Part shown: positions 5,736 to 62,954 of the stretch, piece after piece | Numbering within the stretch: the stretch's first letter is position 1 | How the letters are laid out: the number at the start of each line of letters is the position of its first letter | Origin: Azolla caroliniana | Lineage: Eukaryota; Plantae; Polypodiophyta | Reading direction: 5' to 3' | Assembly (NCBI GenBank): GCA_043228905.1 | Contig: JBHGNT010000016.1 | Location: 12,772,001-12,836,000, forward strand | DNA: 64,000 bases | Notes under the pieces: generated by a model | The model's input: only the letters and a program-made list of their open reading frames with translations | Told to the model about the DNA's origin: nothing | The model's database searches: none | Translations under genes and position numbers: made by a program

Positions 5736-5737
5736 AA

Positions 5738-13625: not shown

Positions 13626-14181
13626 AAACTCGTGATGGCCATGTAGTTGTGACATCGCCTCAGTCAAAGTAGCAAATTCATTTGAATCCATGAAATTGGT
13701 TTTCAAAATTAGCTCCAAATAGTGTAGTTGGTTATTATGCTAGTCTTACACACTAGAAGTTTTCTGTTCAAGTCTGGGTTTGGACAACAAAAAACGTTTC
13801 ATTGAATGAGTAGAAGAATTGGTATCTGTCTTTGTAGAACTAGAATATATTTAGTGGAACTCATGTATGTAGCTTAAGCTAGAACTAGAATATATTTAGT
13901 GGAACTCATGCATGTACCTTAAGCCAACAAAATCGATGTGTTCATTTCTTGTGTCAATTAGGGCTATATGTTTCTTTCTAGAGACTTGTTTGAGCTAAAT
14001 GCCACTACCACATGGGATACATTGAAACTCATAATAGCCAGATAATGTAGTTGGTTATCACACTACTCTTACACAATAGAGGTCACCTATTCAAGTACGG
14101 GTTTATTTGAATTTTTTGAAGTACTCTTTTATGAATAAATGATACCTTAAAATTCACGTAAGAACAATGTATTGTTCAATC
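13626..14181 (+). repeat. tRNA-Val-derived array, left arm part 1 (2 units)
   Basis: Units at about 13713-13786 and 14037-14105 match GTCCARATRGTGTAGTTGGTTATCACGCTAGTCTNACACACTAGAGGTC. Confidence 0.85.
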
Positions 14182-17100
14182 TTTTTTTTTTTTCCCCAGA
14201 AAGACTTCATTAGTATTAAGAAAAAATGCCATAAGGCTACAAACTGTACAATTTAGAGAGTATTATATACAAAAAGGATAATCAGGGGAAGGGCCAGGGA
14301 TGATGATATTTCCAGATTGTTCCTTGAGAGGAGATCATGAATAGAGGCAACTTCCTCCATAACTGTAGTAATTTTTTCCTTTTGTTAAGAACAACCTCTG
14401 AAGGGCCCGACATATTGTCATACTGCCCACGCACTACCGCCAATAAGTTGTCCTATAATTCTAGCAATATATCTGAGAGAAGGGGAACTATGGAATCTTA
14501 TCGTCTTTTACATCAATACTTCCATAAGGTCCATAATGTAACCGTGGATACTGTTTTCCATACTTGGGTTGCACACATTTGCTTTCGAGGCTGTTGAAAA
14601 GGTGAGACAGATATTACATGCCTGTTGATGACAGTCTTAGCCTCTAGAGCATCATTTGCCTCATACAATAAGAAACTGGAATGGAGAACCCCCCATACCG
14701 TTGATCCCCAGGAGAATAAGCAACCTACATTAATTGTCAAGAATAAAGAAAGAACTTTACTCTATACCTGTTGAGCTAGTGACAAGACCAGAGAGCATGC
14801 TTGGTAATTTCCTGCAAGTCACCACAATAACTACATTGTCTAAGAACGGGTGCCATGTTTCCTTTCAAAGATTGACCTACTGGTAGTGCTGCATGTAGCA
14901 AAAGCCATCTGAAGAGAGTGTATTTTGTTGGTCCCCTAAAAGACCAAATCCATTTCCAATAAGCCTTCAAATGACTGCTTGATACACCCCACTTATTCCG
15001 GTGCTTTTGAGCCGCAGGAGTTGGAATATTCTTAGACATGAGTAAGGTTCTACCAAATTTCACAGTATACTGAAAGAACAGAACTTTTTGCATTGGATCC
15101 ATCATGGGACTAGTCCAAGAACATCCCCTTGGGTCCCACATTAGCCTATTAATTGGCTGGCGTGCATATAACCAAAGCATATCCAACAAATGGGCTAATG
15201 ACGGTTGTGGATCCAGGAGCCATTTCTTACCAGTTTTGGCAATCACCCTAATTGGAATAGCAAGTAGGTTTTGTAGCAAATTATCAGAGGGTGTATAAGG
15301 TTGCAATTTATTATCCTATTGAATATGGAAATAAAAAATACACCCATTTGTAGAAATTCCCTTAACAAAGAGCATTATGCCAGTCTTTGCCCCATATATT
15401 GAATGTAACTGCTTAAGGCGATCCACTTCTGGCATCTGCTAAAAAAGAATCCAAGATCCTACTGATGTTGCTGGCCCATTATCAAGTTTTCCCCATGCAA
15501 GACGAGGTCTAAGGTCCAATACATTTCCAATAGAATCCCGAACGAGAGAATTAGCCAAAAGCGGTTGATTCATCCAACCATCCCATGTGTTAGGCATCTC
15601 CTTGCGTAAAAAAATCTTGATTGCATCCCATGCTCTAAAGATCCCTAGTAGAAATCTATTGGATGTTAGATTCCGTCTTGGTGTTTGAATGTCTATCAAG
15701 AACATCCATTTCAAAGATGGCAACCAGTTTCCTCCCATCTTGGGATATAATTGCATCAGTTGATTAAGCAACATACCCTTCCATGCCTCTGTCCCTCCCA
15801 ACAGTCCTCTGACTACAAAATTTATCAAGAGAGCTTGAGATTGTATCAAGGGATCTATTAGAGCCAACCCTCCCTGACTTTTTGGCCTAATCAAAACATC
15901 CCATGCCACCTTGGCCATTGCACGAGATCCATTTTTTCCACCCCAAAGGAAGTTATGTACGAGGCTTTGAACTTTCATGATTGCCGACTGAGAGAACAAC
16001 CAAGCTGATGTGATAAACCACATTGAAGCCAACAACACCGAATTTGCAATGACAACCCGACTTGCAAGGGATAACTGTTGCGAGTCCCAATATACCAACT
16101 TACGCTTAATTGATAATAGCAATGGTGATAGCATCACTCTAGATGGTAAATCTATACCAACAAGACAACCTTAGTAACGAATCGGCTCCCCATGATTTAG
16201 CCAACGGAATGCAGGGCCTGGATACCATTGTGGACGCGGTTCATCACTGGCCCAAAGGCCTATAGATTTATTCCAATTGAGAGAGGCTCCAGTAGCATCT
16301 GAAAATATCTGTAAAGCATTCTGTACCCGATCAAGATTAACAACATCTCCGCGAATATAAAGAGCAATGTCATCTGCAAACTTTGCATCAAGAACTATCG
16401 AGTTTGCAATAGGTAAGGCTATTCCTTGGATGGCTGCCATTGAGGATCTAAGAAAAGCTCATAAAGTTTCCCCCAATAAAATAAAAAGAAATGGTGCTAA
16501 TGGACAACCTTGTCGAATAGATCTGGAAGTTGGAAATAATGTACCATTGTTAGTGATTAGGAACACGGTCTGTAGTCAATCCTTCGACCTAGACCTCCAA
16601 GTGGTTGTGGAACAACGAATGGGGCGTTTATGCATAATGCATAGGGGAATGTTCCTCGTAACCTATCAGCATATAAGGGAGACGGCTACACCCGACTCCT
16701 TAGCAATGGTTACACTTACGTTTTTACATGCTCTAGTATTCCAGACACGCAGTAGATTAGTCGTAGCTATACACAAACTTTCAGAGAAGATAGAATTCTA
16801 TTACGATACGCTTCTTTACAATTCAAAATTACCGTGCTTTCGTCGTAACGCCGGTGATCTCGATATTGCCGCGGCTTACCACGATAACCATTGAAGCCAC
16901 CACGTTTGTTTGTCGGCCGATGATTCTCGTAGCGCCGGCCCCCTTTAGCATAACTCGGATGTCCACGATAATCCTTGTCCTCTGGTTCGTCTTCCTTGGA
17001 ATCATTGTGATTTCGGCGATTCCGGTGATGCCGGTCGTCCTGTGGGTTGTGATCCATATATCGTGGTCGGTCTTCTTTCCTCCTTTGTTTAGTACGGCAT

Positions 17101-17497
17101 GGGGGACGCTGGGTGTCCATGTTGCGGACTGTGCGAGCGGCTCTGTTCAACATATTGTATTCGCATTGTTCGACTGTGTTAGCCTTCGAGTGGCAGATTG
17201 GGCAGTGGATTCGCATATTGCACTCCACTGCGGAATGCCCCGAGTTCAAGCAAATCGTGCACTGGATTGCTTGACGAAACTGGCATTCCTCGTTCTGGGG
17301 TAACGCTTGTCGTAAGGAGGACATAGAAAACCTTTCCTCCTCGTCTGCCAACTCGAGCTGTAACGCTCGTTCAATGACCATATCCGCTATTTTGAGCGTT
17401 GCCTGCATGGGTCGATTAGGAACACGGTCTGCGGTCAGTCCTTCGACCTAGACCTCCAAGTGGTTGTGGAACAACGAATGGGGCGTTTCCCCAAAAG

Positions 17498-17918
17498 TGT
17501 TACCGATTAGGAACACGGTCTACAGTCAGTCCTTCGACCTAGACCTCCAAGTGGTTGTGGAACAACGAATGGGGCGTTTATGCGTAATGCGTAGGGGAAT
17601 GTTCCTCGTAACCTATCAGCGTATAAGGGAGACGGCTACAACCGACTCCTTAGCAATGGTTACAGTTATGTTTTTACACACTCTGGTATTCCAGACACAC
17701 AGTAGATTAGCCATAGCAAAAGATAGAATTCTATTACGATACGCTTCTTTACAATTCAAAATTACACGCTCCCTCTATCAGAGGTTTTCTGCCCTTTATA
17801 TATGCAGGGACTATTTAGCCGTTCACGCTTCCTACATGAACCGTTACATGCGTTATGATCTTATATTATTTCTTATTCTTACGCTCTTGTCCGTCGGTTA
17901 ATATTCCGGCGGACAACA
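17498..17918 (-). repeat. 3' LTR of the gypsy element
   Basis: Direct repeat of 30261-30698 with TG..CA ends and a short internal deletion. Confidence 0.9.
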
Positions 17919-19853
17919 CTGCCACGCTTGTGGGACAGTGCCCTGGCATGTTGGACCCATCCCGTTAATCTTCTTCCAAAATGGCCCGGATGTTTGGCTC
18001 TGCTACGGTGTCCACGTTTGGAGGGGACGTAGGGCCCATAGGTGCATCGTGGTGCAGCTCCCCTATTTGGTCGGCATGGTTTCTCCCGGTGTCACAGTCG
18101 TCGTGTGTGGGCGGTCCGGGTTTGGTGGGTTCTTCTTGAGCTAGCGGATTGGGCTCCGCCGCCGTCCTGCTTGCGGTCAGCCGTGGCTTTGTCTCAATCG
18201 TTACTTCCTCCGTGGTGTCGGTCGTCTTTGTACGTTCCGGGGAGTGGGGCTACAATTCCACCTGGCCCGCACCGTTCTCTGTGTGGTCCGATGATAGCGT
18301 GGGCTCCTGCGGATGGAGCTCCTCTTGGGCAGTGGTTTCGTTGTTTGGTACTGTGGGGGACTTCGCTCGTCGGTCTGCGCTGTTCATCGTCGTTGTATTT
18401 TGTGGTGATCCGGCCTGAGGTTCCTCTTCTTCGGCCATGCTCGGAATTGGCGTCGCGCTGGATTCCTCATTTGTTCGTGTGTTGCCAGTTTGTGTGATCT
18501 GGTGAAATAGCTCCTCCTGGCTTTCACTAAAATCATCTAAGAGCTGCGCGGGTTCTTCGTAATGTTGGTCCGCTAGCACACAATAGTCTTGCGCTAGGTC
18601 CTCGCGTAAGGCCGCAATGCTCTCCTCATTTAGTTTATTGAAACCTCAGCCATCTTTTTGCCGGTTCTCCCAGTCTGCACGATACGCGTGCAATTCCGCT
18701 GCTTGGGTTGCCCATGCCATCCATCCTTTGTCCAACGCCATTTTCAATTACGTTGTGAACCTCTCCCAATTTGTTTGGAGAAGGATACGCACGTTGTTTG
18801 TGATGGCCTGGCAACAGTTGCATGCGTCCTCCATCGACTTCTGGAGGTTCGCAATTTCTTGCTGCCTAACCGCCGCTGCTTCTTCGTCTGTGGTCTTCAG
18901 GCCCGCCCACAGCTGGGATTCCTTTGCGTGTTGTTCTTCTAATTTCCCCATTTCATTGTTTAGGCGGATTTCAAGCTGATGCCTTCTCTCCTGTTCGACC
19001 ACCAGATGCCTTCTTTCAAGGCCCGGAGTCCCGCGATTGCCGCCTCCGATTTCTTCGCCTCATCCCGTAATTGGGCGTTTTTGTCTTTTGTCCGGATGTG
19101 CTGAGCTACCTCCGTAGCAAGTTTCTCTTCAAGGGTTTTTACTGCCTTCCGACTGTTCGCCCGGATCTCCTTTTCTCTATCTGAGGATTGGCGCAGTTCA
19201 GCTCAAAGGCGGTCAATTTCTGATTCCGCTAGCTGCACGGCCCTTTTCGCTTTTGAGGTGATGGCAGTCTGAGCCACAATTTCTTCCTTCAAAGCGTCAA
19301 TGGCGTGGTTTGGTGGCGGAGTTGCGTGTTGCACCGTAGTCGTGTTAGCTTCCAACTCCACAATGCGTTCGTTGGCTTTTTGTAGCTTGGCTTGGGTCAT
19401 TTTCACCTTCTTCCAGCCATTCTTATTTTTAATGGCCATCTCCTTGGCGCCCATGCTGACCTTTGCTAGTTCCCTATGGACTTCGACTAGGGCCGTGTTT
19501 AGTGGGGGTAGCTCCATCCCCACTCGGCGTACCCCGACGTTCCTCCGTCCGCCGACCTTGCCTAACCGGTCCTCATTGTCGCTCTCCGCCGTTTGTGTTA
19601 GGGTGCGCTCGATCATCTGGCGCTCCGTGTACTCCTTGGCCATTTGTTGGGAGGCTTTTATCTGTTGTGTTGCCAGGAATTCCATGAACTCAAAAGAGGT
19701 TCCCAAATGTAAGAGGGCGCTGAACTCATGGGCCGTATCCGGGATATCTAGATATGCCAAAACCTTGCTCGCCGTCGTCAATATGGCTTTCCCTCGTTGG
19801 GACTGCGTCGTAATGATCGGCCGTGGCTCCCAGATGATTTAGAAGGTGGTATT

Positions 19854-22800
19854 TGATAGGAACGGCATGCTCCGTATGCGCAATGCTCGGCCATAACCAA
19901 GCTTAGAAATATACACAGAAAAATGGGGAATGGATGCACGACACAAAAGGAGAAGAGTACACAGGATGTTTACGTGGAAAACCCAAACTAGGGAAAAAAG
20001 CACGGCAGCCCACAAGCTACAAACTATCACTCTGTTACAATGTACAATAGTAAATCTCCGAGGCAACAACCTCGAGCTTTCTATCTTCGCCCCAGGCTGC
20101 AGTTACAACAGAGGCAACGACCTCTTCCTCTCTCTCTCTCTCTCTATGTACACCATTACGCGCTCTCTAGTCTTGCGCCAACAAGAATGACAACAACTGC
20201 TGAAAGAGTTTGCCCTAAGTCATATTTATACTAATATGACTTTTTGGCTATTTACAAATATAGCCCCAATGGACTCTCAGAAACATATTTACGAATATGT
20301 CCCTTCATCCGGCGAGCACTCCTCACCGGGCATGCATCATCCGACGCTTGCCGGGCACAAGTCATCCGGTTCTCACTGGGTCTTCCGTTGTCGGGTACTC
20401 CACATCCGGTTCTCACCGGGTCTTCACCATCCGGCTCATGTCGGGTACTCCACATCCGGTTCTCACCCGGTCTTCACCATCCGGCTCTTGTCGGGTACTC
20501 GTCATCCGGTTCTCACCGGGTCTTCCGTTGCCAGGTAATCCACATCCGGTTCTCACTGGGTCTTCACCATCCGGCTCATGCCGGGTATTCGTCATCTCAC
20601 TTCCCATCGGAGGGACTTGTTTCCTAACAAACTCCCCCTTCACTCCGGCATGGGATGTCTTACTAGTCTGATCCGCGTACGGCATGCTTCCAGCTTGTCG
20701 GGTATCAGTACTTTGGTCAGCATATCTGACCCGCTCTCGGCCGTGTGGATCTTCGTCAGCGCGAAGTCCTGGTCATCTACTCTTTCCCAGATCCAGTGAT
20801 ACCTTCGCTGGATATGCTTTGTCCGGGAATGGTAGGCCGCATTCTTAGCAAGGTGGATGGCACTTTGACTGTCGCAATAGAGCTGGTATTCATCTTGCCG
20901 GATACTGAGCTCACTGATGAAGTCCTTCATCCATAATATTTCCTTGACGGCTTCCACAACCGCCATGTACTCCGCCTCCGTGGTTGACAACGCAACCGTC
21001 TTCTGCAGCCTCGACTGCCACGAAACAGCTCCCCCCGTATATGTCATTACATACCCGGATGTAGACTGGCTGGTATCCACATCAGCCGACATGTCCGAAT
21101 CGGTAAAACCGTCAAGTTGAGGTTTACCGGAGCCGAATCGGAGACACATATTTGAAGTGCCCTTCAAGTACCGGAGTATCCATTTGACCGTGTTCCAGTG
21201 CTCCTTGCCGGGATTGCTCATAAATCGGCTCACCACTCCGACTGCGTATCCAATATCCGGTTGGGTACACACCATTGCGTACATCAAGCTCCCGACGGAA
21301 GAGGTATATGGAACCTTCATCATATCTGCTTTCTCTGCTTTCATCTTCGGGCTTTGCTTACCGGATAATCTGCAGTTTGTCGGGAGTGTCGATCCGACCG
21401 GTTTCGCTTCTAACATGTTGAACTGCTGAAGCACCTTTGTCACGTATTTCTCCTGTGATAGCCACAATTGCTTCTTTGACCGGTCTCGGATGATATGCAT
21501 CCCAAGCATCTGTCTTGCCGGACCCAAGTCTTTCATTGAGAAGGTCCGGATGAGAGACTTCTTCAGCATCCATATTTTGGCTTGGTCCCGTCTTACGATC
21601 AACATGTCGTCCCTGTATAGAAGGACTATCAGAAAGTCGCCTCCTTTGAACTTCTTCACAAACATGCAGTGATCGGCCTGCGTCTTGTGGTACCCTTGAT
21701 CGGTCATGAAGAAGTTGAACATCTGGTACCATTGCCGGGGAGCCTGGTTCAGTCCGTACAAGTTCTTCTTCAACCGGCATACCAGGTGCTCCTTCCCTTT
21801 CTCCACGAATCCTTCCGGTTGCTACATGTAGATCTCCTCTTCGAGGTCACCGTGAAGAAATGCCATCTTCACATCTAGCTGCTCTACCTCGAGATCCATG
21901 CTTGCCGCTGTACTTAGCACCATCCGGGTGGAGGTCATCTTTACTACCGGGTCAAATATCTTGTCGAAGTCCACGCCCTTCTTCTGCTGTAACCCCTTCA
22001 CCACGATCCTGGCTTTGTATCTCGGGGGGTTGCCGGCATCTCCCGGTTTCAACTTGTACACCCACTTGTTTCGGAGTGCCCGCTTTCCTTTCGGCAACTC
22101 CACCAATTTGTACGTATGGTTCTCATGCAGGGAATCCATCTCATCCTGCATGGCACTTAACCATTTGCGGCTATGGGCGTCGCTTTTAGCTTCCTCGAAG
22201 CTTTCTAGCTCCCCCTCATCGGTGAGCAGCACATGCTCTACATCTCGAAATCTCTATGGGGCCCCTCCCTCTCTGAGAGGATATCTCCGTCTTTGGGTTT
22301 CGGTAACCGGCTCCTACATTTGCTCTTCATCCGAATCCGATTCGGGGTCTTGGCCGGTTCCGGTTTCAGTTTCCTCTACTTCTTCTTCTGCCGGTTTGGT
22401 ATCCTCACCGTAATCGGCTGGTTCCTCGAGTGCTAACAGGTTTCTAGCCGGTTCGGTCTGCTCATTGTAGAATTGATCCTTACCGGTCGACTCGGGGTTC
22501 ATTATCTTCTTCTCCGACTCCCAGTCGGCGAGCGTCTTGTCCTCCATGAAGATAATATCTCGACTCCGGAATACCTTCTCGTCGACCGAGTCCCACACTC
22601 GGTAGCCGAACTCATCGTCGCCGTAACCGAGGAATATGCATGGCCGGGTCTTTGGATCTAACTTTCCTCTCCGGTCCTTAGCTACATGCACGTACGCGAG
22701 ACACCCAAACACCTTCAGATGCCGGTAGGACACTTCCTTGCCGGTCCATACTCTCTGTGGCGTGTCTTCGTCCAAGGGTACTGAGGGTGATCTGTTGATC

Positions 22801-23753
22801 ACATATGTCGCCGTCGACAATGCCTCAGCCGAAAACTTCTTGGGTAGTTTTGCATGCGCCACCATACTCCGGACCCTCTCCATTATGGTCCGGTTCATCC
22901 TCTCGGCCAGCCCGTTTAGTTCCGGCATCTTTGGTACGGTAAATTCGAGCCAGATTCCTTTCGAGCGAGAGTACTCCTCGAATTGCCCCCGGTATTCACC
23001 TCCGTTATCTGCTCAAACCGCCTTCAACTTCCAGCCGGTTTCTCTTTCCACTCTCGCGTGGAGCTCTTTGAAGACGGATAGCACTTGATCCTTCGTCTTC
23101 AACGGTGTGGCCCACAACTTCTGGCTGTGGTCTTCTATGAACGTCACGAAGTACTGCGATCCGGCATGTGACTTCGTGTCCACTTGACATACATCAGTAT
23201 GCACCAAATCCAGTGTTGCATTACGTCTCATCGTTGGCCTCGATTGGAAGAAGGTCCGGTTTTGTTTACCGGCCAGACAATCCGTGCACTTCTCCAAGTG
23301 CACGTTCTTCACTGGAATGAGGTTGTCGTCTGCAAGCCTCTTCATCCCCTTCTCGCTCATGTGACACAGCCTTTTGTGTCACACCTCACCGGCAGTGTCG
23401 GATGCCACGTTCACTTCCTCCGGATATAACCGGGCATTCATCAGGTACAACGTGTTTACCTTCCGGGCCCGAGCGACAATCAGGCTCCCTTTGCTGAACT
23501 TCATAACACCGTTTCGGGTACTCCACATCCGGTTCTCACCGGGTCTTCACCATCCGGCTCATGCTGGGTACTCCACATCCGATTCTCACCGGGTCTTCAC
23601 CATTCGGCTCTTGCCGGGTACTCGTCATCCGATTCTCACCGGGTCTTCCGTTGCTGGGTACTCCACATCCGGCTCTCACCGGGTCTTCACCATCCGGTTC
23701 ATGCCGGGTACTCGTCATCTCACTTCCCATCCGGAGGGACTTGTTTCCTAACA
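19854..23753 (-). mobile_element. Ty1/copia element with an internal deletion of gag, PR, PBS and most of the 5' LTR
   Basis: TSD GTATT (19849-19853, 23754-23758); full 3' LTR 19854-20629 with PPT; 5' LTR remnant about 23515-23753; IN, RT and RH ORF pieces 20640-23360. Confidence 0.92.
20305..20600. repeat. CCGG-rich 40-50-bp tandem subrepeats inside the copia LTR (also at 23515-23720)
   Basis: Recurrent CGGGTACTCCACATCCGGTTCTCACCGGGTCTTC motif. Confidence 0.85.
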
Positions 23754-30230: not shown

Positions 30231-30260
30231 GAAGACACAAATCACCAAGCGTGCCAAAAG

Positions 30261-30698
30261 TGTTACTGATTAGGAACACGGTCTACGGTCAATCCTTCGA
30301 CCTAGATCTCCAAGTGGTTGTCGAACAATGAATGGGGTGTCTATGCGTAATGCGTAGGGGAATGTTCCTCGTAACCTATCAACGTATAAGGGACACGGCT
30401 ACAACCAACTCCTTAGCAATGGTTACACTTACGTTTTTACACGCTCTGGTATTCCAGACACACAGTAGATTAGTCGTAGCTATACACAAACTTTCAGAGA
30501 AGATAGAATTCTATTATGATACGCTTCTTTACAATTCAAAATTACACGCTCCCTCTATCAGAGGTTTTCTTCCCTTTATATACACATGGACTATTTCGCC
30601 GTTCACGCTTCCTGCGTGAACCGTTACATGCGTTATGATCTTATATTATTTCTTATTCCTACACTCTTGTCCGTCGGTTACTATTCCGGCGAACAACA
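30261..30698 (-). repeat. 5' LTR of the gypsy element
   Basis: Followed in element sense by CTTTTGGCACGCTTGGTG (PBS). Confidence 0.9.
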
Positions 30699-33375: not shown

Positions 33376-33449
33376 GTCCATATGGTGTGGTTGGTTATCA
33401 CGCTAGTCTCACACACTAGAAGTTTGCGGTTCGAAACCGGGTTTGCACA
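33376..33449 (+). pseudogene. tRNA-Val(CAC)-like unit, mildly degenerate
   Basis: Intact anticodon arm CTAGT-CTCACAC-ACTAG and B box GGTTCGAAACC; mismatches in the acceptor and T stems. Confidence 0.75.
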
Positions 33450-35303: not shown

Positions 35304-35349
<46 letters not shown>

Positions 35350-40619: not shown

Positions 40620-40655
<36 letters not shown>

Positions 40656-52203: not shown

Positions 52204-55200
52204 AACCGCGGGGGAAAAAGAAAGAAGGATAAAGAAGAAAGCTTGCTAGGGTTATTGGAGAAAGGGAAAAGAAATATTCGGTTCAAACTGTCGTGACTCT
52301 TGAGTAGGAAGCAGAGAGAGAGCGATGGCGATAGAGATAACGATAACGATAGAGATGGCGAGAGCGGTAGAGATAGCGATAGTGATAGCAAAAGAGAGTG
52401 AAAGAGGGAGAGAGTGCGAGAGAGAGAAAAGTATAAGTGAGAGATAAGAAATGGGAATGCGATTATATTATGAGAAAGAAGATTACAAGGAGTAGGCTAA
52501 GGGCTAAAGACTGGTGTTGAACCGAATGAGTTGTGATGAGTGTATGGACTCTTATTTATAGGCCCTTATGGAGTATTCTAGAATGTTCTAGAATATTTTA
52601 GATATTTATGAATAATAATAATAATAAATATAATCATGAAATATTCAAGAACATTCTAGAATAATCTAGAATGTTCTAAATATCTCGTAATAACTAAACA
52701 TATAATTATTATGATTACATCTCACATATGTTATTACAATGGTTAAAGTACAATATGTAAACCAAGAGGTTATGGGTTCGATTCCTGGTTCGCCAAGATG
52801 AATGTCATGATAAGCCAAGATGTATGTCTTCATGACAGGTTAGGGTTGATGTTCGGAGCTTTCTGAACCATAGTCTGTAGGAAGGAGAATATGCCGTCGT
52901 TTTTCGACTTACAGTCGATGCTCCTAGTAGAGGAGAACCACACGGGTGCGTCAACGTGTACACACGCCGACAACAAGATGTTGTACACATAGGAAAATAG
53001 GCCCCGTGGTTGTGGTGGACGAGGTGAGTCGGCGGACAATGGAGGCGGCCGACAGGAGCAAGATGGAAGGCATGGTCGTAATGCTAACAGTAGTTTCGGA
53101 TCCCTCCGAAAGCAAGGGGAGTCAATGCGCCTGCCAGAAACCGGCAAGGGAAACCTGCGGTGGAATGCTGGTACTGTGGCTGGAAGAAATGTGTCGATTC
53201 GGAGAAAACCACATCCGGATCCAGGCGGACCGAACAAATAAATCAGCAGCGATCGCACTACACTGAGGGCTCCAACTGAGTTGAAAATGGATTGGGCCCA
53301 GCCTTCGTAATGAAGGACAAGGCCAATTCGACGGCAATAAATACCTCAAAACTGAACGAGGTGTGGTATGTTGACTCTGGAGCATCAAATCATATGATGT
53401 GGCACGAAGAATGGTTTTTGTACTCGGGAGAAACCGGAAAAGCAAGGAGTGGTCAAAACAGGAGACGACACTCCGCATACCATTGAACATGTTGGAGAAG
53501 TTCCCCTCAGCCACGTTCGGCAAAAAGGGAAACTCATGAAGATGTTACATGTCCCGACAATAACCGAGAACCTGGTGTTGGTCGGACAGATCATCGACTA
53601 GGGATTGCAAGTTTGTTTGCTACATCGAAGAAGAAGGCAAGATAATCACACAAGGGTGTCGTTAAGCGAGGATGTTTATCCTCGAGACCAACGACGTAGG
53701 CACCGCTATGTTCATGAAAGGGCAAAAGGTCAAATTGGATATTGACCTGTGGCACAAGCAGTTCGGCCACGTAAATTTCCCGAAGCGTCAAGAAATGCAG
53801 ACGAAATACATCGTTTTCGGCTTGCCGAAATTCAGTGTTCAAAAGGGCCAAGTTTGCGAAGCTTGGCAGCTGGGAAAGCGTCACTGACTTTGATTCCCCA
53901 ATGAACATAACCGCAATCAAAATCTGCTCGATGTGATCCATTCGGATATATGGGGATCGGTACAAAACGTGAGTCTCGGTGGAAGCCAATATTTTGTGAC
54001 TTTCATCGATGACTTCTGTCGGCACAGTTGGGCATGCTTGATTGTGAAAAGAGGTAAGTCTTGTGGAAAGAGCTTTGCGGAAAGGCAAACCGGATGAAAG
54101 ATCAAGTGCCTAAGGTCCGATGATGGGAAGGAATACTTCTCCGACCAGTTCTCGAATTATCTGCAAGACGGAGGATTTCAGAGTACTTCTCCTCCAGATA
54201 CACCCCGCAGCAGAATGGCGTGGCAGAGAAAAAAAAATGTACGATCGAAGAGGCGGTCAGGGCAATGTTCGAACATAAGCATATGCCAAAATTTTACTGG
54301 GCTGAAGCAGTAATGATAGTTGTTTACTTGCAGAATCAGACTTCTACTAATGGAGGAGTATTGCCACATGAATTGTACTCCAAGAAGAAGCCGAACTTGG
54401 CACACTTGAGGGTTTTCGGTAGCATCCTGTATGTGCATGTGCTGAAGGAGAAACGGCGAAAAGATGGATGCCAAAGCTGAGAAGTGTATCTTGGTTGGCT
54501 ACTCGGACGACCAAAAGGGTTATAAGTTTTATAACCCCCGAAGCAAACAAGTTGTTATAAGTTGTGATGTGTTTGACGAGTCCGGGTCGTGGTACTTGCC
54601 TTCGCCTCCAACCACTGACGACTCCATTCCGATCACTAACGAAGAGGTCAGCGAGGCTGAAATGCCTCGGGAACAAGGAGACATCGGAGCTCCTGAAGAG
54701 AGTCTAATCTCATTCAGGGTAAGTGGGCCGAACGAGCGACTGAGTCGGCATGACCAATTAGGCATATAGCCGATGAGTAGTGGTGAATCAGCCGTGCATT
54801 CCCCACACAAGAAGCCGAGGACAGGGCTTACGTGCGAAGAGAAAGGAAAGAAGAAGATGTTGGACTATGGCATTAATAGGGAAGAGTCGGATCAAAGAGA
54901 ATCCAACTCCGAGAAGAACGAAGATGGACCTTCGGAAACGAAGTTCGTGTGGGCCAAGAGGGCCTCAAAATCGGCTAATGAGCAATTACACCGCTCCACC
55001 CACTAGAAGAACCTTGTGGTGTGTTGCAGATACAATGAGTACATGACACATCATTATGCATGCATGACGCGAGTGGCAGAAGTGCGTGAGCCAGAGAGCT
55101 ATGTAGAAGTGGCGAAGGACGCGAACTAACGTGCCGTGATGAAGAAAGAGATGCATGCGTTATCAGACAATGAGACTTGGGACCTAGTTGACGCACCTAA

Positions 55201-55631
55201 AGGTGTGAAGCCGATCGGATGAAAATGGGTGTACAAGGTGAAGTACAACACCGATGGTTCAGTTAACCGATACAAGACCCGGTTAGTGGCGAAAGGCTAC
55301 GCGTAGAAGGACGTTGTTGATTACGATGAGACCTTCGCACTTGTCACGAAGATGACCACTATTTGTGTTCTACTGGCCGTAGCAGCGGCGAAGGGGTGCC
55401 ACTTACATCAGATGGATGTAAAGAATGTGTTCCTGCAAGGTGATCTTGAGGAACAAGTGTACATGGTACAACCCCCTGGATTTCAATCTGACTGGAACAT
55501 CGCCACTACCGACCTAGATGAAATCGGCGGCATAAAATCTCAGCTCGCGGCATCATTCAACATGAAGGATCTAGGGGACCTTCATTAGTATGTGTCTTTT
55601 ACGCACACATTTCTGGACGTATTCCTTTACA

Positions 55632-58600
55632 AGTGTCAATATAGCCTATGCGCTAGTGGCATTTACATCAAACATGTCAGAAACAGATACCACTATTTGA
55701 CGCAAAAATGTAGATATTCTTGGCTATATTGTATTTTTCTAAACACGGATAGCAATTACAGATCAAACATGTATTTTTCTAATCTACTCATTCTATGTAG
55801 CATCTTTTCTTGTATAAACCTAGACTTGAACCAGAGACCTAGTGTGTTAGAGGAGCGTGATAGCCAACTACACCATCTGGACATATTGAGAATAACTAGC
55901 TTGGATCGATGAATAAAAGACTAATCTCAATAAATATTTCATCTGTCAATTCGAAATGAATAAATTAAAACATTGTTGTTGTTGTAATCGACAAGATTAT
56001 GTGCCCAAAACCGTTTTCGACCCGAAGACCTCTAGTGTGTGAGACTAGCGTGATAACCAACTACACCATCTAGACCCATTTGTCATTACTAATTTCATAG
56101 TTTGAAATGACATAAATTTTTTAATTAGACCAAGCCAATGGCATGTCACAATCACATTGACATAACGATTTTGTAAGTATGCCAAGTGGCAGGTAAGATT
56201 TACCTTATAGAAGTCTTTGTGACTACGTACCATTTAGATTGAAAAAGATAGCACCAATGGAAGCTAGAAATGAAGAATTCTTTTTTCTTTACTTAATATA
56301 TATTCAGGACTGGAAGTTCGTTTAACATAATACTTGACTATATCAACATAATTACAATCAACCACCCATGCAAAGAACGATAGCTTTGACTCTAGTCAGT
56401 CTAAATAGCACTTTTCTTGTTCAAAGGTAGATTGTAACCGGAGACCTCTATTGTGTTAGAGTTGCATGAAAATCAATTACACCATCTAAACATATGAATG
56501 ATATCTATTTTTCTATCTTAATTAATGTTGGTGCAATAACGATTGAACAATAGAGTGTTCTTAGATGAGTTTCAAGATATCATTTATTCGTAAAAGAATA
56601 GTTCAAAAGATGCAAATAAACCCGGACTCAAACCGAAGACGTATAGTGTGGACGCCTAGCGTGATAACCAACTACACTATCTAGACGCAATTGTGAATAT
56701 CGCTCAATTTCATGCATTCTAATGAATTTTATATACCAATTCTTCTACTTTTCTAAAGACGTATACCAATTATTCTACTCATTCTACGTAGCATCTTTTT
56801 TTGTCCAAACCCGGACTTGAATTGTGGACATATATTGTATTAGACTAGCGTGATAACCAACTACACTATCTGCAATTATTAAAAATAACTAGCTTGGATC
56901 GATGAATAAAAGACTAATCTCAGTGGAAATTCCATATGTCAATTCGAAAAGAATAAGTTAAAACATTATTGTTGTTGAAATCGACAAGATTATGTGTCCA
57001 AACCCTGATTCAAACCAGAGACCTCGAGTGTGTGAGACTAACGTGATAACCAAATACACTATATTGACGAGGAGTTACAGTTAGTTTAAGTTAAACATAA
57101 TACTTGACTATATCAACATAATTACAATCAGGCAACCATGCAAAGAAGAATAGCTATGATTCTAGTTGGTCTAAATAGCACTTCTCTTGTCCAAATGTAG
57201 ACTATAACCGGAGACCTCTAATGTGTTAGAGAAGCATGAAAATCATCTACAGCATCTAAACATATGAATGATATCTATTTGTCTATCTTAATTAATCTTG
57301 GTGCAATAACGATTGAAAAATAGAGTGTTCTTAGATGAATTTGAAGATATCATTTATTCATAAAAGAATAGTTCAAAATATGCAAATAAACTAGAACTCA
57401 GACCGAAGACCTCTAGTCTGGAAGTCTTGCGTGATAACCAACTACACTATCTAAATACAATTGTAAATATTGCTCAATTTCATGCATTCTGATGAATTTG
57501 ATACTTTCACTGAAGTGATGTCAACTTGGGAATCATTAGTTTCAGTATATCCCATTTGCTTGTGGCATTTAGTTCAAACAAGTCTCTAGGAAGAAACATA
57601 TCGCCCTAATTGACACTAGTAATCAACACGACGATTTTCTTGGATTAATGTACATGCATGAGTTCCACCTAGCTTCTATAATTATATTCTAGTTCGCTAA
57701 AGACACATAAGAATTCTTCTACTCATGCTATGTCACATTTTTTGTTGCCTAAACACAGACTCGAAACGAAGACCTCTAGTGTGTAAAACTAGCGTGATAA
57801 CCAACTACATTATCTAGACCCAATTCTGAAGATCAATTTCATGGATTTAGATGAATTTGATACTTTCACTGAACCGATGTCAAAACTACATAGGTATTAC
57901 AAGTCTCAATGTATCCCTTGTCGTAGTGGCATTTAGCTCAAACAAGACTCTAGAAAGAAACATATAGCCGTAATTGACACAAGAAATGAACATGTTGATT
58001 TTCTTGGCTTAAAGAAACATATAGCCGTAATTGACACAAGAAATGAACATGTTGATTTTCTTGGCTTAAGGTATGTGCATGAGATCCACTGAGTTCCACT
58101 AAATATATTCATATCTATGTAACAATTTTTGTTGTCCAAACATGGAGTCAAACCGAAGACCTCTAGTGTGTAAGACTAGAGTGATAACCAACTACACTCT
58201 TTGAACACAATTGTAAAAACAAGTCTCTAGAAAGAAATGACACTGATTGACACAATAAAAATGACGATTTTCTTGGCTTAAGGTACATGCATGAGTTCCA
58301 CTTAGTTTCACTAAATATATTCTAGTTCTATACAGATAGATACCAATTCTTCCAGTCATTCTATGTAACATTTTTTGTTGTCCAAACCTGGACGCGATGC
58401 AAAGATCTCTACTTTGTAAAACTAGCGTCATAACCAACTACATTATCTGGACCTAATTGTGAAGATCAATTTCATGGATTTAGATGAATTGGATACTTTC
58501 ACTGAACCGATGTCAAAACTACATAGTTATTACGAGTTGAGTTTCAATGTATCCCATGTGGTAGTGGCATTAAGCTCAAACAAATCTCTAGCAAGAAACA

Positions 58601-61600
58601 TAGAGTCGTAATTGACACAAGAAATGAACACGTCGATTTTCTTGGCTTAAGGTATGTGCATGAGATGCACTTAGTTCCACTAAATATATTCATATATGCT
58701 AATTCTTCTACTCATTCAATGTAACAATTTTTGTTGTCCAAACACAGAGTCGAACCGAAGAGCTCTCCTGTGTAAGACTAGCATGATAACCAACTACACT
58801 ATTTGGACACAATTGTAAATACCAATTTCATGGATTCAGAGGAATTTGTTACTTTGACGGATGCGATGTCACAACCACATGGATATCATGAGTTTCAACG
58901 TAGTCCAGGTGGTAGTGTGATTTAGGTCAAACATGTCATAAACCAGATAACACTATTTAAAGCAAAAATGTAGAAATTTATTTTCTTGTTTAATATTGTT
59001 TTTTTCTAAAGACGGATACCAATTATTCTACTAATTCTATGTAGCATCTTTTCTTGTCCCAACCTGGACTTGAACCGAAAACTGTCTTAGACTACAGTGA
59101 TAACCAACTACACTATCTGCAAATATTAAAAATAACTAGTTTGGATCGATGAATAAAAGACTAATCTCAGTAGAAATGCTATATGCCAATTCAAAAAGAG
59201 TAACTTAAAACAATATTGTTGTTGTAGTCAACAAGATTATGTGTCCAAACCCGGACTCGAACCGGAGACCTCTAGTGTGTGAGACTAGCGTGATAACCAA
59301 CTACACCATCTGGACCGATTTGCCATTACTAATTTAATAGTTCGACATGCATTTGTTAATTAGACCAAGTGATTGGCATGTAACACTGACATTGCCGTAA
59401 CGACAATGAAAGTTTTCCAAGTGGTAGTAAGATTTACCTTATAGACGTCTTTCTGACTACATATGATTTAAGCTATAAAAGATAGCACCAATGTAAGCAA
59501 GAGATGAAGAATTCTTTTTGCTTTGCATAATATATGTGCAGGACTTGTAGTTAGTTTAACATAATACTTGACTATATCCACATCATTACAATCAAGCAAC
59601 CATCCAAAGAACAATAGTGATAATTTTAGTGAGTCTAAATAACACTCTCTTGTCCAAACATAGACTGCAACCGGAGACCTCTAATGTGTTAGAGTACCAT
59701 GAAAATCAACTACACCATCTTAACATATCAGCGATATCTATTTGTCTTTGTTAATTAATCTTCATGCAATAACCATTGAAGAATAGAGTGTTCTTAGAGG
59801 AATTTCAAGATATCATTTCTTCGTAAAAGAATAGTTCAAAACATACAAATAAACCTAGACTCAAACTAAAGACCTCTAGTGTGGAAGTCCATCGTTATAA
59901 CCAACACTATCTAGAAGAAATTGTGAATATCGCTCAATTTCATGCATTCTGATGAATTTGATACTCTCACTGAAATGATGTCACAACTACATGGGCATCA
60001 TGAGTTTTAATGTATCCCCTGTGGTTGTGGCATTTAGGTGAAACAAGTTTCTAGAAAGAAATAGCACTAATGGACACAATAAAAATGACGATGTTCTTGG
60101 CTTAAGGTACATGGATGAGTTCCACTGAGTTTCACTAAATATATTCTAGTTCTATAAAGATAGATACCAATTCTTCTAGTCATTCTATGTAACATTTTTT
60201 GTTGTCCAAACTCGGACCCGATGCGAAGATCTCTAGTGTGTAAGACTAGCATGATAAACAACTACATTATCTGGACCTAATTGTGAAGATCAATTTCATA
60301 GATATAGAGGAATTGGATACTTTCACTAAACCAATGTCAAAACTACATGGCTCTTACGAGTTGAGTTTCAATGTATCCCATGTGGTAGTGGCATTAAGCT
60401 CAAACAAGTCTCTAGAAAGAAACATATAGCCGTAATTGAAACAAGAAATGAACACGTTGATTTTCTTGGCTTAATGTACATGCATGAGATCCACTTAGTT
60501 CCACTAAATATATTTATATATACTAATTGTTCTACTAATTCTCTGTAATATTTTTCATTTTCCAAACATGGAGTCAAACCGAAGACGTCTAGTATGTAAG
60601 ACTACCGTTATAACCAACTACACTATTTGGAGCTAATTGTAAAGATCTATTTCATAGATAGAGATGAATTGGATACTTTCACTGAACCGATGTCCAAATT
60701 ACATGGCTATTACGAGTTGAGTATTAATGTATCCCATGTGGTAGTGACATTAAGCTCAAACAAGTCTCTAGAAAGAAACATATATCCGCAATTGACACAA
60801 GAAATGAACACGTCGATTCTCTTGGCTTAAGGTATGTGCATGAGATCCACTTAGTTCCACTAAACATACTCATATATATACTAATTCTTCTACTCATTCT
60901 ATGTAACATTTTTGTTGTCCAAACACTAAGTCGAACCGAAGACCTCTAGTGTGTAAGACTAGCGTGATAACCAACTACAAAATTTGGACACAATTATAAA
61001 AACCAATTTCATGGAATCAAAGGAATTTGTTACTTTGACGGATGTGATGTCATAGCCACATGACCATCTCGAGTTTCAACGTAGCCGATGTGGCAGTGTG
61101 ATTCAGGTCAAACATGTCCAAAACAGATAGTACTATTTGACGCATAAATGTACACGTTTATTTTCTTGGTAGATTGTATTTTTCTAAAGACAGATACCAA
61201 TTATTCTACTCATTCTATTTAGCATCTTTTCTATTCCAAACCCAAACTTGAACCAGAGACCTCTAGTGTGTTAGACTAGTGTGATAACCAACTACACTAT
61301 CTGCAAATATTGAGAATGACTAGCTTGGATGGATGAGTAAAAGACTAATCTCGATGGAAATTCCATATGCCAATTTGAAAAGAGTAATTTAAAACATTAT
61401 AGTTGTTGTAGTCAACAAGATTATGTGTGCAAAGCCGAACTCGAACCGGAGACCTCTAGTGTGTGAAACTAACGTGATAACCACCTACACCATCTGGACG
61501 ATTAGGCATTACTAATTTAATATCTGACAGGTATTTGTTAATTAGACCAAGCGATTGGCATATAACATTGACATTGTACTAATGACAATGTAAGTTTTCC

Positions 61601-62954
61601 AAGTGGTAGTAAGATTTACCTTATAGAAATCTTTTTGACTACATACGATTTAAATTATAAAAGATAGTACCAATGTAAGCAAGAGATGAAGAATTCTTTT
61701 TGCTTTGCATAATATATGTGCAGGACATGCAGTTTGTTTAACATAATACTTGACTATATCGACATCAATGCAATCAGCCAACCATGCAAAGAACAACAGT
61801 TATAATTTTAGTCAGTCTAAATAACACTTCTCTTGTGCAAACATAGACTGGAACTGGAGACCTCTAATGTGTTAGAGTAGTATGCAAATCAACTACAACA
61901 TCTAAACGTATCAACGATATCTGTTTGTCTATCGTAATTAATCTTGGTGCAATAACGATTGAAGAATGGAGAGTTCTTAGAGGAATTTCAAGATATCATT
62001 TCTTCGTAAAAAAATAGTTCAAAATATACAAATAAACCCGGACTCAAACTGAAGACCTCTCGTGTGGAAATCCAGCGTTATAACCATCTACACTATCTAG
62101 AAGAGATTGTGAATATCGCTCAATTTCATGCATTCTGATGAATTTGATACTCTCACTGAAATGATGTCACAACTACATGGCCATCACGAGTTTCAATGTA
62201 TCCCATGTCGTTGTGGCATTTAGGTGAAACAAGTCTCTAGAAAGAAATAGCACTAATTCACACAATCAAGATGACGATTTTAAGGTACATGCATGAGTTC
62301 CACTTAGTTTCACTAAATATATTCTAGTTCTATAAACATAGCAAGGAATTCTTCTAGTCATTCTATGTAACATTTTTTGTTGTCCAAACCCGGACCCGAC
62401 CCGAAGACCTTTAGTGTGTAAGACTAACGTGATAGCCAACTACATTATCGAGACCCAATTCTGAAGATTAATTTCATGGATTTAGATGAATTGGATACTG
62501 TCAGTGAACCGACATCAAAACGACATGGCTATTACGAGTTTCAATGTATCCCATGTGGTAGTGGCATTTAGGTCAAACAAGTCTCTAGAAAGAAACATAT
62601 AGCCGTAATTGACACAAGAAATGAACATGTCGATTTTCTTGGCTTAATGTATATGCATGACATCCACTTAGTTCCACTAAATATATTTATATGTAGTAAT
62701 TCTTCTACTCATTCTATGTAACATTTTTAGTTTTCCAAACATGGAGTCAAACCGAAGACCTCTAGTGTGTAAGACTAGAGTCAAACATGTCAGAAACAGA
62801 TAACACTATTTGACGCAATAATGTAGACGTTGATTTTCTTGGTTATATTGTATTTTTCTAAAAATAAATACCAATTATTCTACTCATTCTATGCATCATC
62901 TTTTCTTGTCCAAACCCAGACTTGAACTCGAGACCTCTTCTGTGTTAGACTAGG
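55632..62954 (-). repeat. tRNA-Val-derived higher-order array, right arm part 2 (about 26 units, period up to about 2.2 kb)
   Basis: CAC units at about 56002, 56995, 59242 and 61426; TAC units at about 60203, 60560 and 60916 (about 357-bp subperiod). Confidence 0.93.
59242..59315 (-). tRNA. tRNA-Val(CAC), structurally intact
   Basis: GTCCAGA TG GTGTAGTTGGTTATCAC G CTAGT CTCACAC ACTAG AGGTC TCCGG TTCGAGT CCGGG TTTGGAC A: all four stems pair, A and B boxes are present, CAA lies at -7 and a T4 run about 30 nt downstream. Confidence 0.85.

What the first reader, a model, noticed from the sequence alone, without database searches (positions are those of the whole stretch)
13626..62954. Higher-order tandem array of about 50 tRNA-Val-derived units forming the backbone of the window
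Seen: the apparently featureless AT-rich DNA is a repeat-spacer array whose conserved 74-nt repeat is a whole tRNA-Val body. Acceptor stems such as GTCCAAA/TTTGGAC often still pair. Spacers of about 120, 245, 280 and 335 bp recur in fixed order, giving a 1.4-2.2-kb higher-order repeat, and the long spacers are distantly homologous to each other (shared GTGGTAGT and CAAGAAATGAA blocks), implying an ancestral monomer. The tRNA part looks much better conserved between unit classes than the spacers. Known: tandem tRNA clusters exist (Arabidopsis Pro and Ser-Tyr clusters, Entamoeba arrays). Inference: this is a tRNA-derived macrosatellite that could act as a centromeric or boundary element, a TFIIIC/Pol III platform, or a source of tRNA fragments.
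Basis: partly seen in the sequence, partly recalled or inferred. Interest (0 to 1): 0.85.

Follow-up and report, generated by a model that had tools for sequence, protein, structure and literature searches.

The report
Decaying tRNA-Val gene array in fern
A valine tRNA gene was copied head-to-tail about 50 times in a fixed repeating pattern, likely in the water fern Azolla, and all but one copy are decaying as fast as the DNA between them, so this is likely a dead gene cluster rather than a working satellite.

Summary
The array is real: 51 tRNA-Val-like units in five classes, ordered D-C-A-T(n)-G, with class-specific spacers of 119-336 bp. It fills only 29% of the span; the rest is mostly retrotransposons, two inserted into spacers with target-site duplications. 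The body is a cytosolic tRNA-Val(CAC) gene. The host is likely Azolla (inferred from a homologous locus beside Azolla plastid DNA).

Since the higher-order repeat spread, tRNA and spacer have decayed alike (9.6% vs 9.1%). Stem changes break pairs at the neutral rate, C>T changes at CG/CHG dominate, and no two units exceed 94% identity. Only 59242-59315 is intact, and it is identical to a gene in a relative.

Earlier, the C, A and T classes were likely constrained, and they carry all three Val anticodons (CAC, AAC, TAC) on one body. A second, independent 150-bp tRNA-Val array occurs in another organism, likely a congener.

Verdict: a dead tandem tRNA cluster, a new variant of a known kind. A centromere or boundary role is unsupported. 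It bears on Azolla's unexplained ~7,500 tRNA genes.

The parts
13626..14187 (+). Array segment 1: units T (13713-13786) and G (14036-14109)
31714..34192 (+). Array segment 2: six units D-G-D-C-G-D. It continues segment 1 across the LINE and is broken by a ~0.67-kb insert at 32044-32707.
41132..46187 (-). Array segment 3: 17 units (sense order TDCATGDCADCATTGDC), with a ~0.55-kb non-array insert at 43299-43843
55632..62953 (-). Array segment 4: 26 units (sense order ATTGDCATTTGDCATTTTGDCAGDCA). It continues into segment 3 across the Copia insertion.
59242..59315 (-). The one intact tRNA-Val(CAC): all 20 stem pairs, A and B boxes, CAA just upstream, T4 about 31 nt downstream; identical to the gene in L034
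59242..61425 (-). One complete 2184-bp, seven-unit higher-order repeat: A(AAC) 61233, T(TAC) 60916/60559/60203, G(TCC) 59846, D(AAC) 59651, C(CAC) 59242
14182..31713 (-). LINE inserted in a G>D spacer: 12-bp target-site duplication at 14170-14181 and 31714-31725, T12 tail at 14182, zf-RVT at 14779-15315, RT at 30882-31496. A Ty3/gypsy (16548-30698) and a Copia piece are nested in it.
46188..55631 (+). Decayed Copia inserted in an A>T spacer; 5-bp target-site duplication differing at one base
   Evidence: Copia identity from the tRNA-primer-site-like sequence beside the sister LTR at 13211 and from RT-like DNA near 55300, read by eye.
12448..13781 (-). Inverted duplicate of the Copia/array junction (matches 46032-46889 and 52838-53052); K2P 0.144 over 554 bp
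35171..40945 (-). Young intact Tcn1-like chromovirus between segments 2 and 3, in non-array DNA (LTRs differ at 1 of 458 aligned sites; 5-bp TSD)
   Evidence: pol 68% like the element at 46885 at DNA level
46885..52837 (-). Young intact Tcn1-like chromovirus nested in the Copia (LTRs differ at 0 of 548 aligned sites, with indels; 5-bp TSD)

Best explanation
This is a tandem cluster of 51 copies of a cytosolic tRNA-Val(CAC) gene, likely in the water fern Azolla, whose copies are decaying at the same rate as their spacers and which is likely methylated and silent except for one intact copy. History, step by step. (1) Shown: one Val(CAC) gene duplicated in tandem, and a C(CAC)-A(AAC) pair with its short spacer is also present in a relative (L034), so this step is old. 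(2) Shown: further duplication gave five classes; D groups with A and G with T in the tree, and the short and long spacers form two homologous sets. (3) Inferred: for a long time the C, A and T bodies were kept working while G and D died, and wobble-base changes put all three Val anticodons on one body. (4) Inferred: the five-class block was amplified by unequal crossing-over to tens of repeats, then methylated like the Arabidopsis clusters. (5) Shown: since then tRNA and spacer have decayed alike, with no recent homogenisation, and a LINE, a Copia, an inverted duplication and later chromoviruses broke the array up. (6) Inferred: unit 59242-59315 is still transcribed by Pol III, or was recently repaired by conversion from a working dispersed copy.
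For: EQUAL DECAY. 325/3384 tRNA sites vs 660/7250 flank sites differ from the class consensus (9.6% vs 9.1%, p=0.41; 46 units, 5 of 92 flanks dropped as rearranged). Six sister-copy contrasts: G/C sites 26.4% vs 26.5%, A/T-only sites 2.4% vs 2.3%. 113 of 189 stem changes break a pair (60%) vs 64+/-4% in neutral simulation. A+B boxes are intact in 7 of 46 units, all pairs in 1 of 46. Cloverleaf energy is -18.4 kcal/mol for 59242, -12.6 for the next best, and positive for 24 of 41 ungapped units. METHYLATION SIGNATURE. Change rate is CG 20-23%, CHG 20%, CHH 12-15%, A/T 5-6%; 77-78% of CG changes are C>T/G>A. NO HOMOGENISATION. Nearest-neighbour identity has median 88%, maximum 93.9%. TE INSERTIONS in spacers with TSDs. 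EARLY CONSTRAINT. Founder-to-class changes are 12/222 for C+A+T vs 25/148 for G+D (p=0.0006). tRNA vs homologous spacer differences between classes: 5% vs 16%, 19% vs 35%, 19% vs 33% (p about 0.02 each). The A consensus breaks no pair. INTACT COPY. 0/74 changes vs 16/170 in its flanks (p=0.004); the chance that any of 46 units has none is 0.035. It scores 61.4 bits vs 63.0 for a canonical gene, is identical to the L034 gene, and is 1 base from a dispersed gene in L088. HOST. The L034 spacer is 85% like the C>A spacer over 91 nt (z 15). The plastid ndhG on the same contig is identical, 195/195 aa, to a protein named Azolla mexicana. The chromoviruses look Tcn1-like, a clade of non-seed plants and fungi.
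Against: After correcting for base context the tRNA bodies show 325 changes where 371 are expected (ratio 0.87), so weak constraint on some copies is not excluded. The flank rate there is partly inflated because T-class subtypes were pooled. Anticodon positions change somewhat less than other sites (7 of 138). G/C sites in loops change less than those in stems (11% vs 18%). The C and T consensuses each break one pair, and three of five T changes and two of four A changes fall at positions invariant in 14 natural Val(CAC) variants, so these classes may not have been fully functional. Methylation, silence and Pol III occupancy were not measured. The host genus rests on one metagenome contig that joins nuclear-type and plastid DNA and could be a misjoin. 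The six contrasts are not fully independent: two overlap.
Confidence: 0.75

Rival explanations
1. The array is a working cis-element (centromeric satellite, heterochromatin boundary or TFIIIC platform), with its B boxes maintained for chromatin function.
For: The higher-order structure resembles satellite HORs, and the setting is TE-rich. The C>A and G>D periods (193 and 195 bp) fall in the 185-195 bp window that Li et al. 2018 used to look for centromere repeats in Azolla (PMC6786969, passage). One intact gene could act as a local boundary.
Against: B boxes are intact in 10 of 46 units. Box positions change about as often as other positions (G/C 12.5% vs 15.9%, A/T 8.2% vs 4.3%). There is no homogenisation. 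At 80% likeness the summed contig depth over spacers peaks near 1,800 against 15-32 for single contigs, i.e. tens of copies (the tool warns this is no true copy number). The spacers are nearly absent from organisms C and D (6 and 13 of 30 bins, almost all at tRNA positions).
Confidence: 0.08
2. The array is a silenced but maintained reserve cluster like the Arabidopsis Ser-Tyr-Tyr cluster, switched on in particular cells or serving as a source of tRNA fragments.
For: It has the same architecture (a multi-gene unit repeated in tandem, in heterochromatin). CAA is kept upstream in 25 of 36 C/A/T/G units. The SYY cluster is reactivated in root tips (PMC13437025 passage).
Against: SYY genes mostly keep their canonical Pol III elements (PMC7544208 passage) and are conserved. 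Here 45 of 46 units have broken pairs, and stems decay neutrally. T4 terminators lie within 30 nt in 47 of 47 canonical dispersed genes, but are absent within 200 nt in 9 of 12 T units.
Confidence: 0.07
3. The closeness of the C, A and T bodies to the founder, and the intact copy, come from gene conversion among the 74-nt bodies and with dispersed working genes, not from selection on these copies. The three Val anticodons would then be chance wobble changes.
For: C units are mosaic at positions 60, 61 and 71 (6/2, 4/3/1 and 4/4 splits). Contigs with a 59242-like tRNA and other flanks exist in organisms A and B (loose ends at both tRNA borders), so donors are available. The sister unit 61426 carries the broken base at position 71 that 59242 lacks.
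Against: Conversion should erase class-specific anticodons, yet they are nearly fixed: CAC 8/8, TAC 12/12, AAC 5/7 and 8/10. The tree of bodies alone recovers the flank-defined classes with the minimum 4 changes (0 of 200 shuffles as low). The C-A pair with an intact C and an AAC-bearing A recurs in L034.
Confidence: 0.25
4. The monomer is a tRNA-derived SINE that became tandem.
For: Several contigs in organisms A and B carry a 59242-like tRNA followed by one shared 3' flank, also seen in L034 (9 contigs in X3; read by eye). T units have a short A6 run after the body. SINE-derived satellites exist in reptiles (PMC10702118, listing only).
Against: Each unit holds a whole tRNA body to the discriminator base. 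No per-unit TSD or repeat tail is seen in the flanks. All units are tandem and share spacer homology. The founder equals a normal gene with a T5 terminator (L088).
Confidence: 0.06

Closest known systems
Arabidopsis Ser-Tyr-Tyr tDNA cluster and other plant tandem tDNA clusters (Hummel 2020 PMC7544208; Hummel 2026 PMC13437025; Monloy & Planta 2024 PMC11700998; all passages)
   Same: Tandem repeats of a multi-gene unit with position-specific flanks (Tyr1 vs Tyr2, like the classes here), in TE-rich heterochromatin, about 40 kb, methylated and silent.
   Different: SYY genes stay intact and can be reactivated. Here 45 of 46 units are broken and decay neutrally. The unit is built from one body with four anticodons rather than from distinct isotypes. 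Val is not among the recurrent cluster isotypes named in those passages (Pro, Ser/Tyr, Ile, Ala, Gln, Cys).
Ceratodon purpureus multi-tRNA tandem repeats, including Val(AAC)-Glu-Phe, and same-amino-acid tandem pairs with different anticodons (Zhang et al. 2025, PMC12652284; passages)
   Same: A non-seed plant; units of 2-3 tRNA genes repeated up to 37 times. 220 tandem pairs decode one amino acid with different anticodons, Val among them.
   Different: Those copies are 100% identical and presumably young. This array is old (median 88% identity), dead and interrupted by TEs, and has three Val anticodons plus a Gly anticodon in one unit.
tRNA anticodon shifts (Rogers & Griffiths-Jones 2014, PMC3923123; abstract)
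   Same: Isoacceptor shifts (44 of 75 reported) and alloacceptor shifts; here CAC to AAC and TAC, and TAC to TCC.
   Different: Those are single orthologous genes. Here the shifts are fixed as classes of a tandem unit and then amplified.
Azolla's extreme tRNA gene count (more than 7,500; EMBO J 2026 review PMC13578239, passage)
   Same: Likely the same genus; this array adds 11 (ARAGORN) or 17 (Rfam) tRNA calls in one window.
   Different: The review ascribes the count to duplication and repeats and suggests a benefit for fast growth. The copies here are mostly dead, with 1 of 51 intact.
Entamoeba tRNA arrays (recalled, no call)
   Same: Tandem multi-tRNA units with fixed spacers.
   Different: Those are functional, highly homogeneous, thousands of copies, with STR-rich spacers. 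None of that holds here.

Membership tests
Plant tandem tDNA cluster | At least 5 tRNA genes within 5 kb (PMC13437025) or at least 3 per kb (PMC11700998) | tested here: met
   26 units in 7.2 kb. Even by ARAGORN calls alone, 5 lie in 58131-61499.
Plant tandem tDNA cluster | Same-orientation tandem duplication with conserved position-specific flanks | tested here: met
   Five flank-defined classes in fixed order. The tree of bodies matches them.
Plant tandem tDNA cluster | Cytosine methylation and heterochromatin | tested here: inconclusive
   Only the mutational footprint (CG/CHG C>T excess) and the TE setting; no methylome available.
Functional (reserve) tDNA cluster, SYY type | Most copies keep cloverleaf, A/B boxes and terminator, and are conserved more than their flanks | tested here: not met
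   1 of 46 fully paired, 7 of 46 with both boxes, equal decay.
Functional (reserve) tDNA cluster, SYY type | Conditional expression | not testable with these tools
   No suitable RNA data were served; see Tried and rejected.
Satellite DNA with higher-order repeats | Tandem monomers grouped into a multimer whose copies are more alike than neighbouring monomers | tested here: met
   Same-class units have median nearest-neighbour identity 88%; spacers of different classes are 65-89% alike or unalignable.
Satellite DNA with higher-order repeats | High copy number and ongoing homogenisation | tested here: not met
   Maximum identity 93.9%; tens of copies by contig depth, rough.
Centromeric satellite | CENH3 binding and primary-constriction location | not testable with these tools
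   No ChIP data or chromosome map; no whole genome held.
tRNA-derived SINE | Dispersed copies with TSDs and a 3' tail | tested here: not met
   Within the window, units are tandem with no per-unit TSD or tail. Genome-wide dispersal was seen only as contig loose ends.
Cytosolic plant tRNA-Val(CAC) gene (unit 59242-59315) | Cloverleaf, A/B boxes, upstream CAA, downstream T-run | tested here: met
   61.4 bits; all 20 pairs, with three acceptor pairs changed on both sides relative to the common form; CAA upstream; T4 at about +31.
Cytosolic plant tRNA-Val(CAC) gene (unit 59242-59315) | Transcribed and charged | not testable with these tools
   Needs tRNA-seq or precursor reads; the body is identical to dispersed copies.

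The most novel reading that the evidence does not exclude
In Azolla one tRNA-Val(CAC) family repeatedly seeds tandem arrays: a five-class higher-order array in one lineage and an independent 150-bp satellite in another. The array here once supplied a complete set of Val isoacceptors (CAC, AAC, TAC), made from a single body by wobble switching under selection, before being silenced. One live gene survives inside it. Such gene-to-satellite arrays would account for a large share of the genus's record tRNA gene count.
Probability: 0.3. Interest if true: 0.62.

Novelty: new variant of a known kind. Interest (0 to 1): 0.4.

Why it matters
It catches a tRNA gene family in the act of turning into satellite-like DNA, with the stages still readable: constrained duplication with anticodon switching, then amplification, silencing, neutral decay and TE invasion. 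A second, independent array from the same tRNA family in another organism suggests the route is repeatable. It also gives a direct test of an open point in the literature: whether Azolla's >7,500 predicted tRNA genes support fast growth or are largely dead array copies. In this window standard tools-17 genes where 1 is intact. It does not support a new centromere or insulator type.

Tried and rejected
(1) No whole genome is held for this window, and the records behind L034, L048, L065, L042 and L105 are not held. Chromosome position, total array size and the nature of the L034 contig (nuclear, mitochondrial or misjoined) stay open.

(2) Expression: no RNA holder was listed. Two guessed-RNA contig runs laid 0 records and one run of unknown kind laid 1. 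This is no evidence either way.

(3) TRF finds only one 356-bp stretch of the array, because the period is mixed and longer than 500.

(4) A B-box count was off by one position and was redone. The left TSDs printed were shifted by one base and were read.

(5) One of seven listed sister contrasts (a T-T neighbour pair) was not run.

(6) A shared origin of the 150-bp satellite's spacer with this array was tested and not found: best z 2.1, p 0.046 among six comparisons.

(7) Targeting of tRNA units by the chromoviruses was considered and rejected: one sits in non-array DNA, the other inside the Copia.

(8) The chromovirus protein search gave no named close relative; the best hits, 70-89% identical, are unnamed.

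(9) Literature searches found no description of this array: 0 papers; 0 papers. The main supplementary PDF of Li et al. 2018 was too large to read and may discuss tRNA gene expansion (I recall that it does; no call). Cognat et al. 2022 was not seen.

(10) Scan notes by words and by sequence returned nothing.
Full report
OBSERVATION. ARAGORN tRNA-Val genes in the window and Rfam 17 tRNA matches. A nucleotide profile built from those 17 finds 54 hits at E<=1, of which 51 are at E<0.05. A second-round profile gives 50 at E<0.01, and the reversed window gives one hit at E 0.79. 46 of the 51 span nearly the whole 74-nt body. Array DNA forms six segments totalling 14,213 bp, 29% of the finding's span: 8 units on the + strand at 13.6-14.2 and 31.7-34.2 kb, and 43 on the - strand at 41.1-46.2 and 55.6-63.0 kb. 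The DNA between is mostly LINE, Copia and Ty3/gypsy.

ANATOMY. Clustering of flanks, tidied by hand into five classes, gives the order D-C-A-T(n)-G. Spacer consensuses are C>A 119, A>T 244, T>T 282, T>G 290, G>D 121 and D>C 336 bp, and C-to-C periods within blocks are 993-2247 bp. Anticodons are class-specific: C CAC 8/8, T TAC 12/12, A AAC 5/7, D AAC 8/10, G TCC 7/9. A tree of the bodies alone recovers the classes with the minimum of 4 changes, against a shuffled mean of 28. D groups with A (weak support, 74/89) and G with T (97/94); with only 74 columns many forks are open. The two short spacers are homologous (z 8.0) and the four long ones are homologous (z 22-83). So the higher-order repeat likely grew from a short-spacer/long-spacer dimer (inference).

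WHAT THE BODY IS. A scan of metagenome contigs with a 28-nt stretch of the window returned 127 loci. The commonest gene among them is the plant cytosolic tRNA-Val(CAC). The best window unit, 59242-59315, differs from it in the acceptor stem by changes on both sides at three pairs and keeps all 20 canonical pairs. It scores 61.4 bits against 63.0. It is identical to a gene in L034 and one base from a dispersed gene with a T5 terminator in L088. L034 also carries the C>A spacer (85% over 91 nt, z 15) and a decayed AAC-bearing A unit, so the C-A pair is older than the split between the window's organism and that of L034.

HOST (inferred). The plastid ndhG on L034 is identical over 195 aa to a protein named Azolla mexicana. 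The two chromoviruses have fungal, fish and algal named relatives and 11-12-nt self-priming complements. These are features of the Tcn1 clade of non-seed plants (Neumann et al. 2019, PMC6317226, passages). An earlier unchecked scan note also calls this genome 'likely from a fern'. The L034 contig could be a misjoin, so the genus is likely, not shown.

THE DECISIVE TEST: DECAY SINCE THE REPEAT SPREAD. Against class consensus, 325 of 3384 tRNA sites and 660 of 7250 flank sites differ (9.6% vs 9.1%, p=0.41; 46 units, 5 of 92 flanks dropped as rearranged). Corrected for CG/CHG/CHH/AT context, 371 changes are expected, a ratio of 0.87. This small deficit is the main result against neutrality, and pooling T subtypes inflates the flank rate. 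Six direct contrasts between sister copies give 13.6% (tRNA) vs 10.6% (spacer) overall, and equal rates when split by base: 26.4% vs 26.5% and 2.4% vs 2.3% (two contrasts overlap). Of 189 stem changes, 113 break a pair (60%; neutral simulation 64+/-4%), and box positions are not spared. Both boxes are intact in 7 of 46 units and all pairs in 1 of 46. T4 lies within 30 nt of 47 of 47 canonical dispersed genes. In the array it lies at about +31 in 7 of 8 C units and is absent within 200 nt in 9 of 12 T units. Change rates of 20-23% at CG, 20% at CHG, 12-15% at CHH and 5-6% at A/T, with 77-78% of CG changes being C>T/G>A, are the footprint expected of long methylation (inference). No two units exceed 93.9% identity (median nearest neighbour 88%), so homogenisation has stopped.

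THE EARLIER PHASE. tRNA vs homologous spacer differences are 5% vs 16% (A/T), 19% vs 35% (C/G) and 19% vs 33% (A/D), each p about 0.02. The C, A and T consensuses lie 3, 4 and 5 changes from the founder, G and D 12 and 13 (p=0.0006). C, A and T carry the three Val anticodons, and both shifts are at the wobble base. I read this as purifying selection while the cluster was small, with isoacceptor shifts of the kind in Rogers & Griffiths-Jones 2014 (PMC3923123, abstract). Against this: the C and T consensuses each break one pair, several A and T changes fall at positions invariant in 14 natural variants, and C units are mosaic, so gene conversion is a live rival.

ONE INTACT COPY. Unit 59242 has 0 of 74 changes from the L034 sequence while its flanks have 16 of 170 (p=0.004). 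With a mean of 7.2 changes per unit, the chance that any of 46 has none is 0.035. It is likely either a working gene or a recent conversion product.

BREAK-UP. A LINE sits in a G>D spacer with a 12-bp TSD (14170-14181 and 31714-31725) and a T12 tail, which joins segments 1 and 2. A Copia at 46188-55631 sits in an A>T spacer with a 5-bp TSD differing at one base, which joins segments 3 and 4. The Copia/array junction is duplicated in inverted form at 12448-13781 (K2P 0.144), which explains the + strand segments. Two chromoviruses with LTRs differing at 1 of 458 and 0 of 548 sites arrived last.

ELSEWHERE. 9 of 14 listed runs, from 4 studies and two organism labels (A, B), hold the array. X1, X2 and X3 cover 30 of 30 bins. 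Summed depth at spacer sites peaks near 2,000 against 42-78 for single contigs in X1, and near 1,800 against 15-32 in X3. That suggests tens of repeats; the tool warns this is no true copy number. Organisms C and D cover 6 and 13 of 30 bins at 80% likeness, almost only at tRNA positions. A second tRNA-Val(CAC) array turned up: 20 units in 3,017 bp of L048 and 9 in L065, with a 150-bp period. Its spacer is unrelated (best z 2.1 of six), its founder has a different acceptor stem, and it also decays evenly (16.8% vs 16.5%, 22 monomers). In organism D, 43 and 35 contigs end at the tRNA borders with flanks that match this second spacer (compared by eye). That D is a congener is inferred.

COMPARISON WITH WHAT IS KNOWN. 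Tandem tDNA clusters with multi-gene units are known. The Arabidopsis Ser-Tyr-Tyr cluster is methylated, silent and conditionally reactivated (PMC7544208 passages; PMC13437025 passages; PMC12308677 listing only). Surveys list Pro, Ser/Tyr, Ile, Ala and Gln clusters (PMC11700998 passages; PMC13578239 passages). Ceratodon has 2-3-gene units repeated up to 37 times, one including Val(AAC) (PMC12652284 passages). This array belongs to that kind by density and architecture, but fails the tests for a maintained cluster and for an active satellite. Azolla filiculoides is reported to have more than 7,500 tRNA genes, with the link to growth undemonstrated (PMC13578239). Li et al. 2018 sought centromere repeats of 185-195 bp with more than 100 copies (PMC6786969 passages); its main supplement could not be read. 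PMC9134734 (passages) was consulted on fern plastid tRNA-Val losses and does not bear on the verdict. Searches found no description of this array or of a plant tRNA-Val satellite; subscription papers are not covered.

VERDICT. It is a dead tandem tRNA-Val cluster with a readable history, a new variant of a known kind. Interest 0.4.

Noticed in passing
L048 201-2938, L065 570-1789, L050, L087, L042; run X11 (organism D): A second tRNA-Val(CAC)-derived tandem array with a 150-bp monomer (74-nt body + 76-nt unrelated spacer), decaying evenly. Summed depth at the tRNA is 12,186 in X11 against 7-31 for single contigs, suggesting hundreds of copies.
   Followed up: partly
L034 1484-2844: An intact nuclear-type tRNA-Val(CAC), a partial tandem copy and a decayed AAC unit lie 0.4 kb from a plastid ndhG identical in protein to Azolla mexicana's, on a contig labelled coverage 61. 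It may be a plastid insertion in the nucleus, a mitochondrial contig or a misjoin. Fern plastomes have lost or doubtful trnV genes (PMC9134734), so an organellar location would be worth checking.
   Followed up: partly
window 35171-40945 and 46885-52837: Two very young, intact Tcn1-like chromoviruses of different families (68% DNA identity), with self-priming complements and 4 and 7 heat-shock-element-like motifs in their LTRs. Possibly heat-responsive; untested.
   Followed up: partly
window 17919-17960 (- strand): The Ty3/gypsy element nested in the LINE (16548-30698) has no purine tract before its 3' LTR but a tRNA-3'-end-like stretch, like the elements in the earlier scan notes. Read by eye only.
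   Followed up: no
window G-class units, e.g. 41696-41769, 56613-56686: A Val body with a Gly (TCC) anticodon is fixed in 7 of 9 units, and loss of the 3' acceptor end created a T4 run right behind it. It would misread if expressed, but the stems are broken.
   Followed up: yes
runs X1, X2, X3, tRNA border at window 59242: Several contigs carry a 59242-like tRNA followed by the 3' flank seen in L034 rather than the window's. This points to related loci elsewhere in the same genome, possibly the founder locus or a small dispersed family.
   Followed up: no
window 515-6038: A young Copia with LTRs differing at 3 of 301 sites, whose gag-pol frame is interrupted by one stop at 2356-2358.
   Followed up: no
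window 43299-43572 and 62954-63217; 63540-64000; 34626-34789: A non-array sequence (83% over 357 bp including adjoining array) abuts the array twice. Short 150-bp and 40-bp tandem repeats of unknown origin lie beyond the array ends.
   Followed up: no
L017/L018, L090-L092, L114-L116: Small tandem clusters of near-canonical tRNA-Val(CAC) genes, about 750-1,000 bp apart, in other plant contigs. Val clustering may be commoner than surveys list.
   Followed up: no
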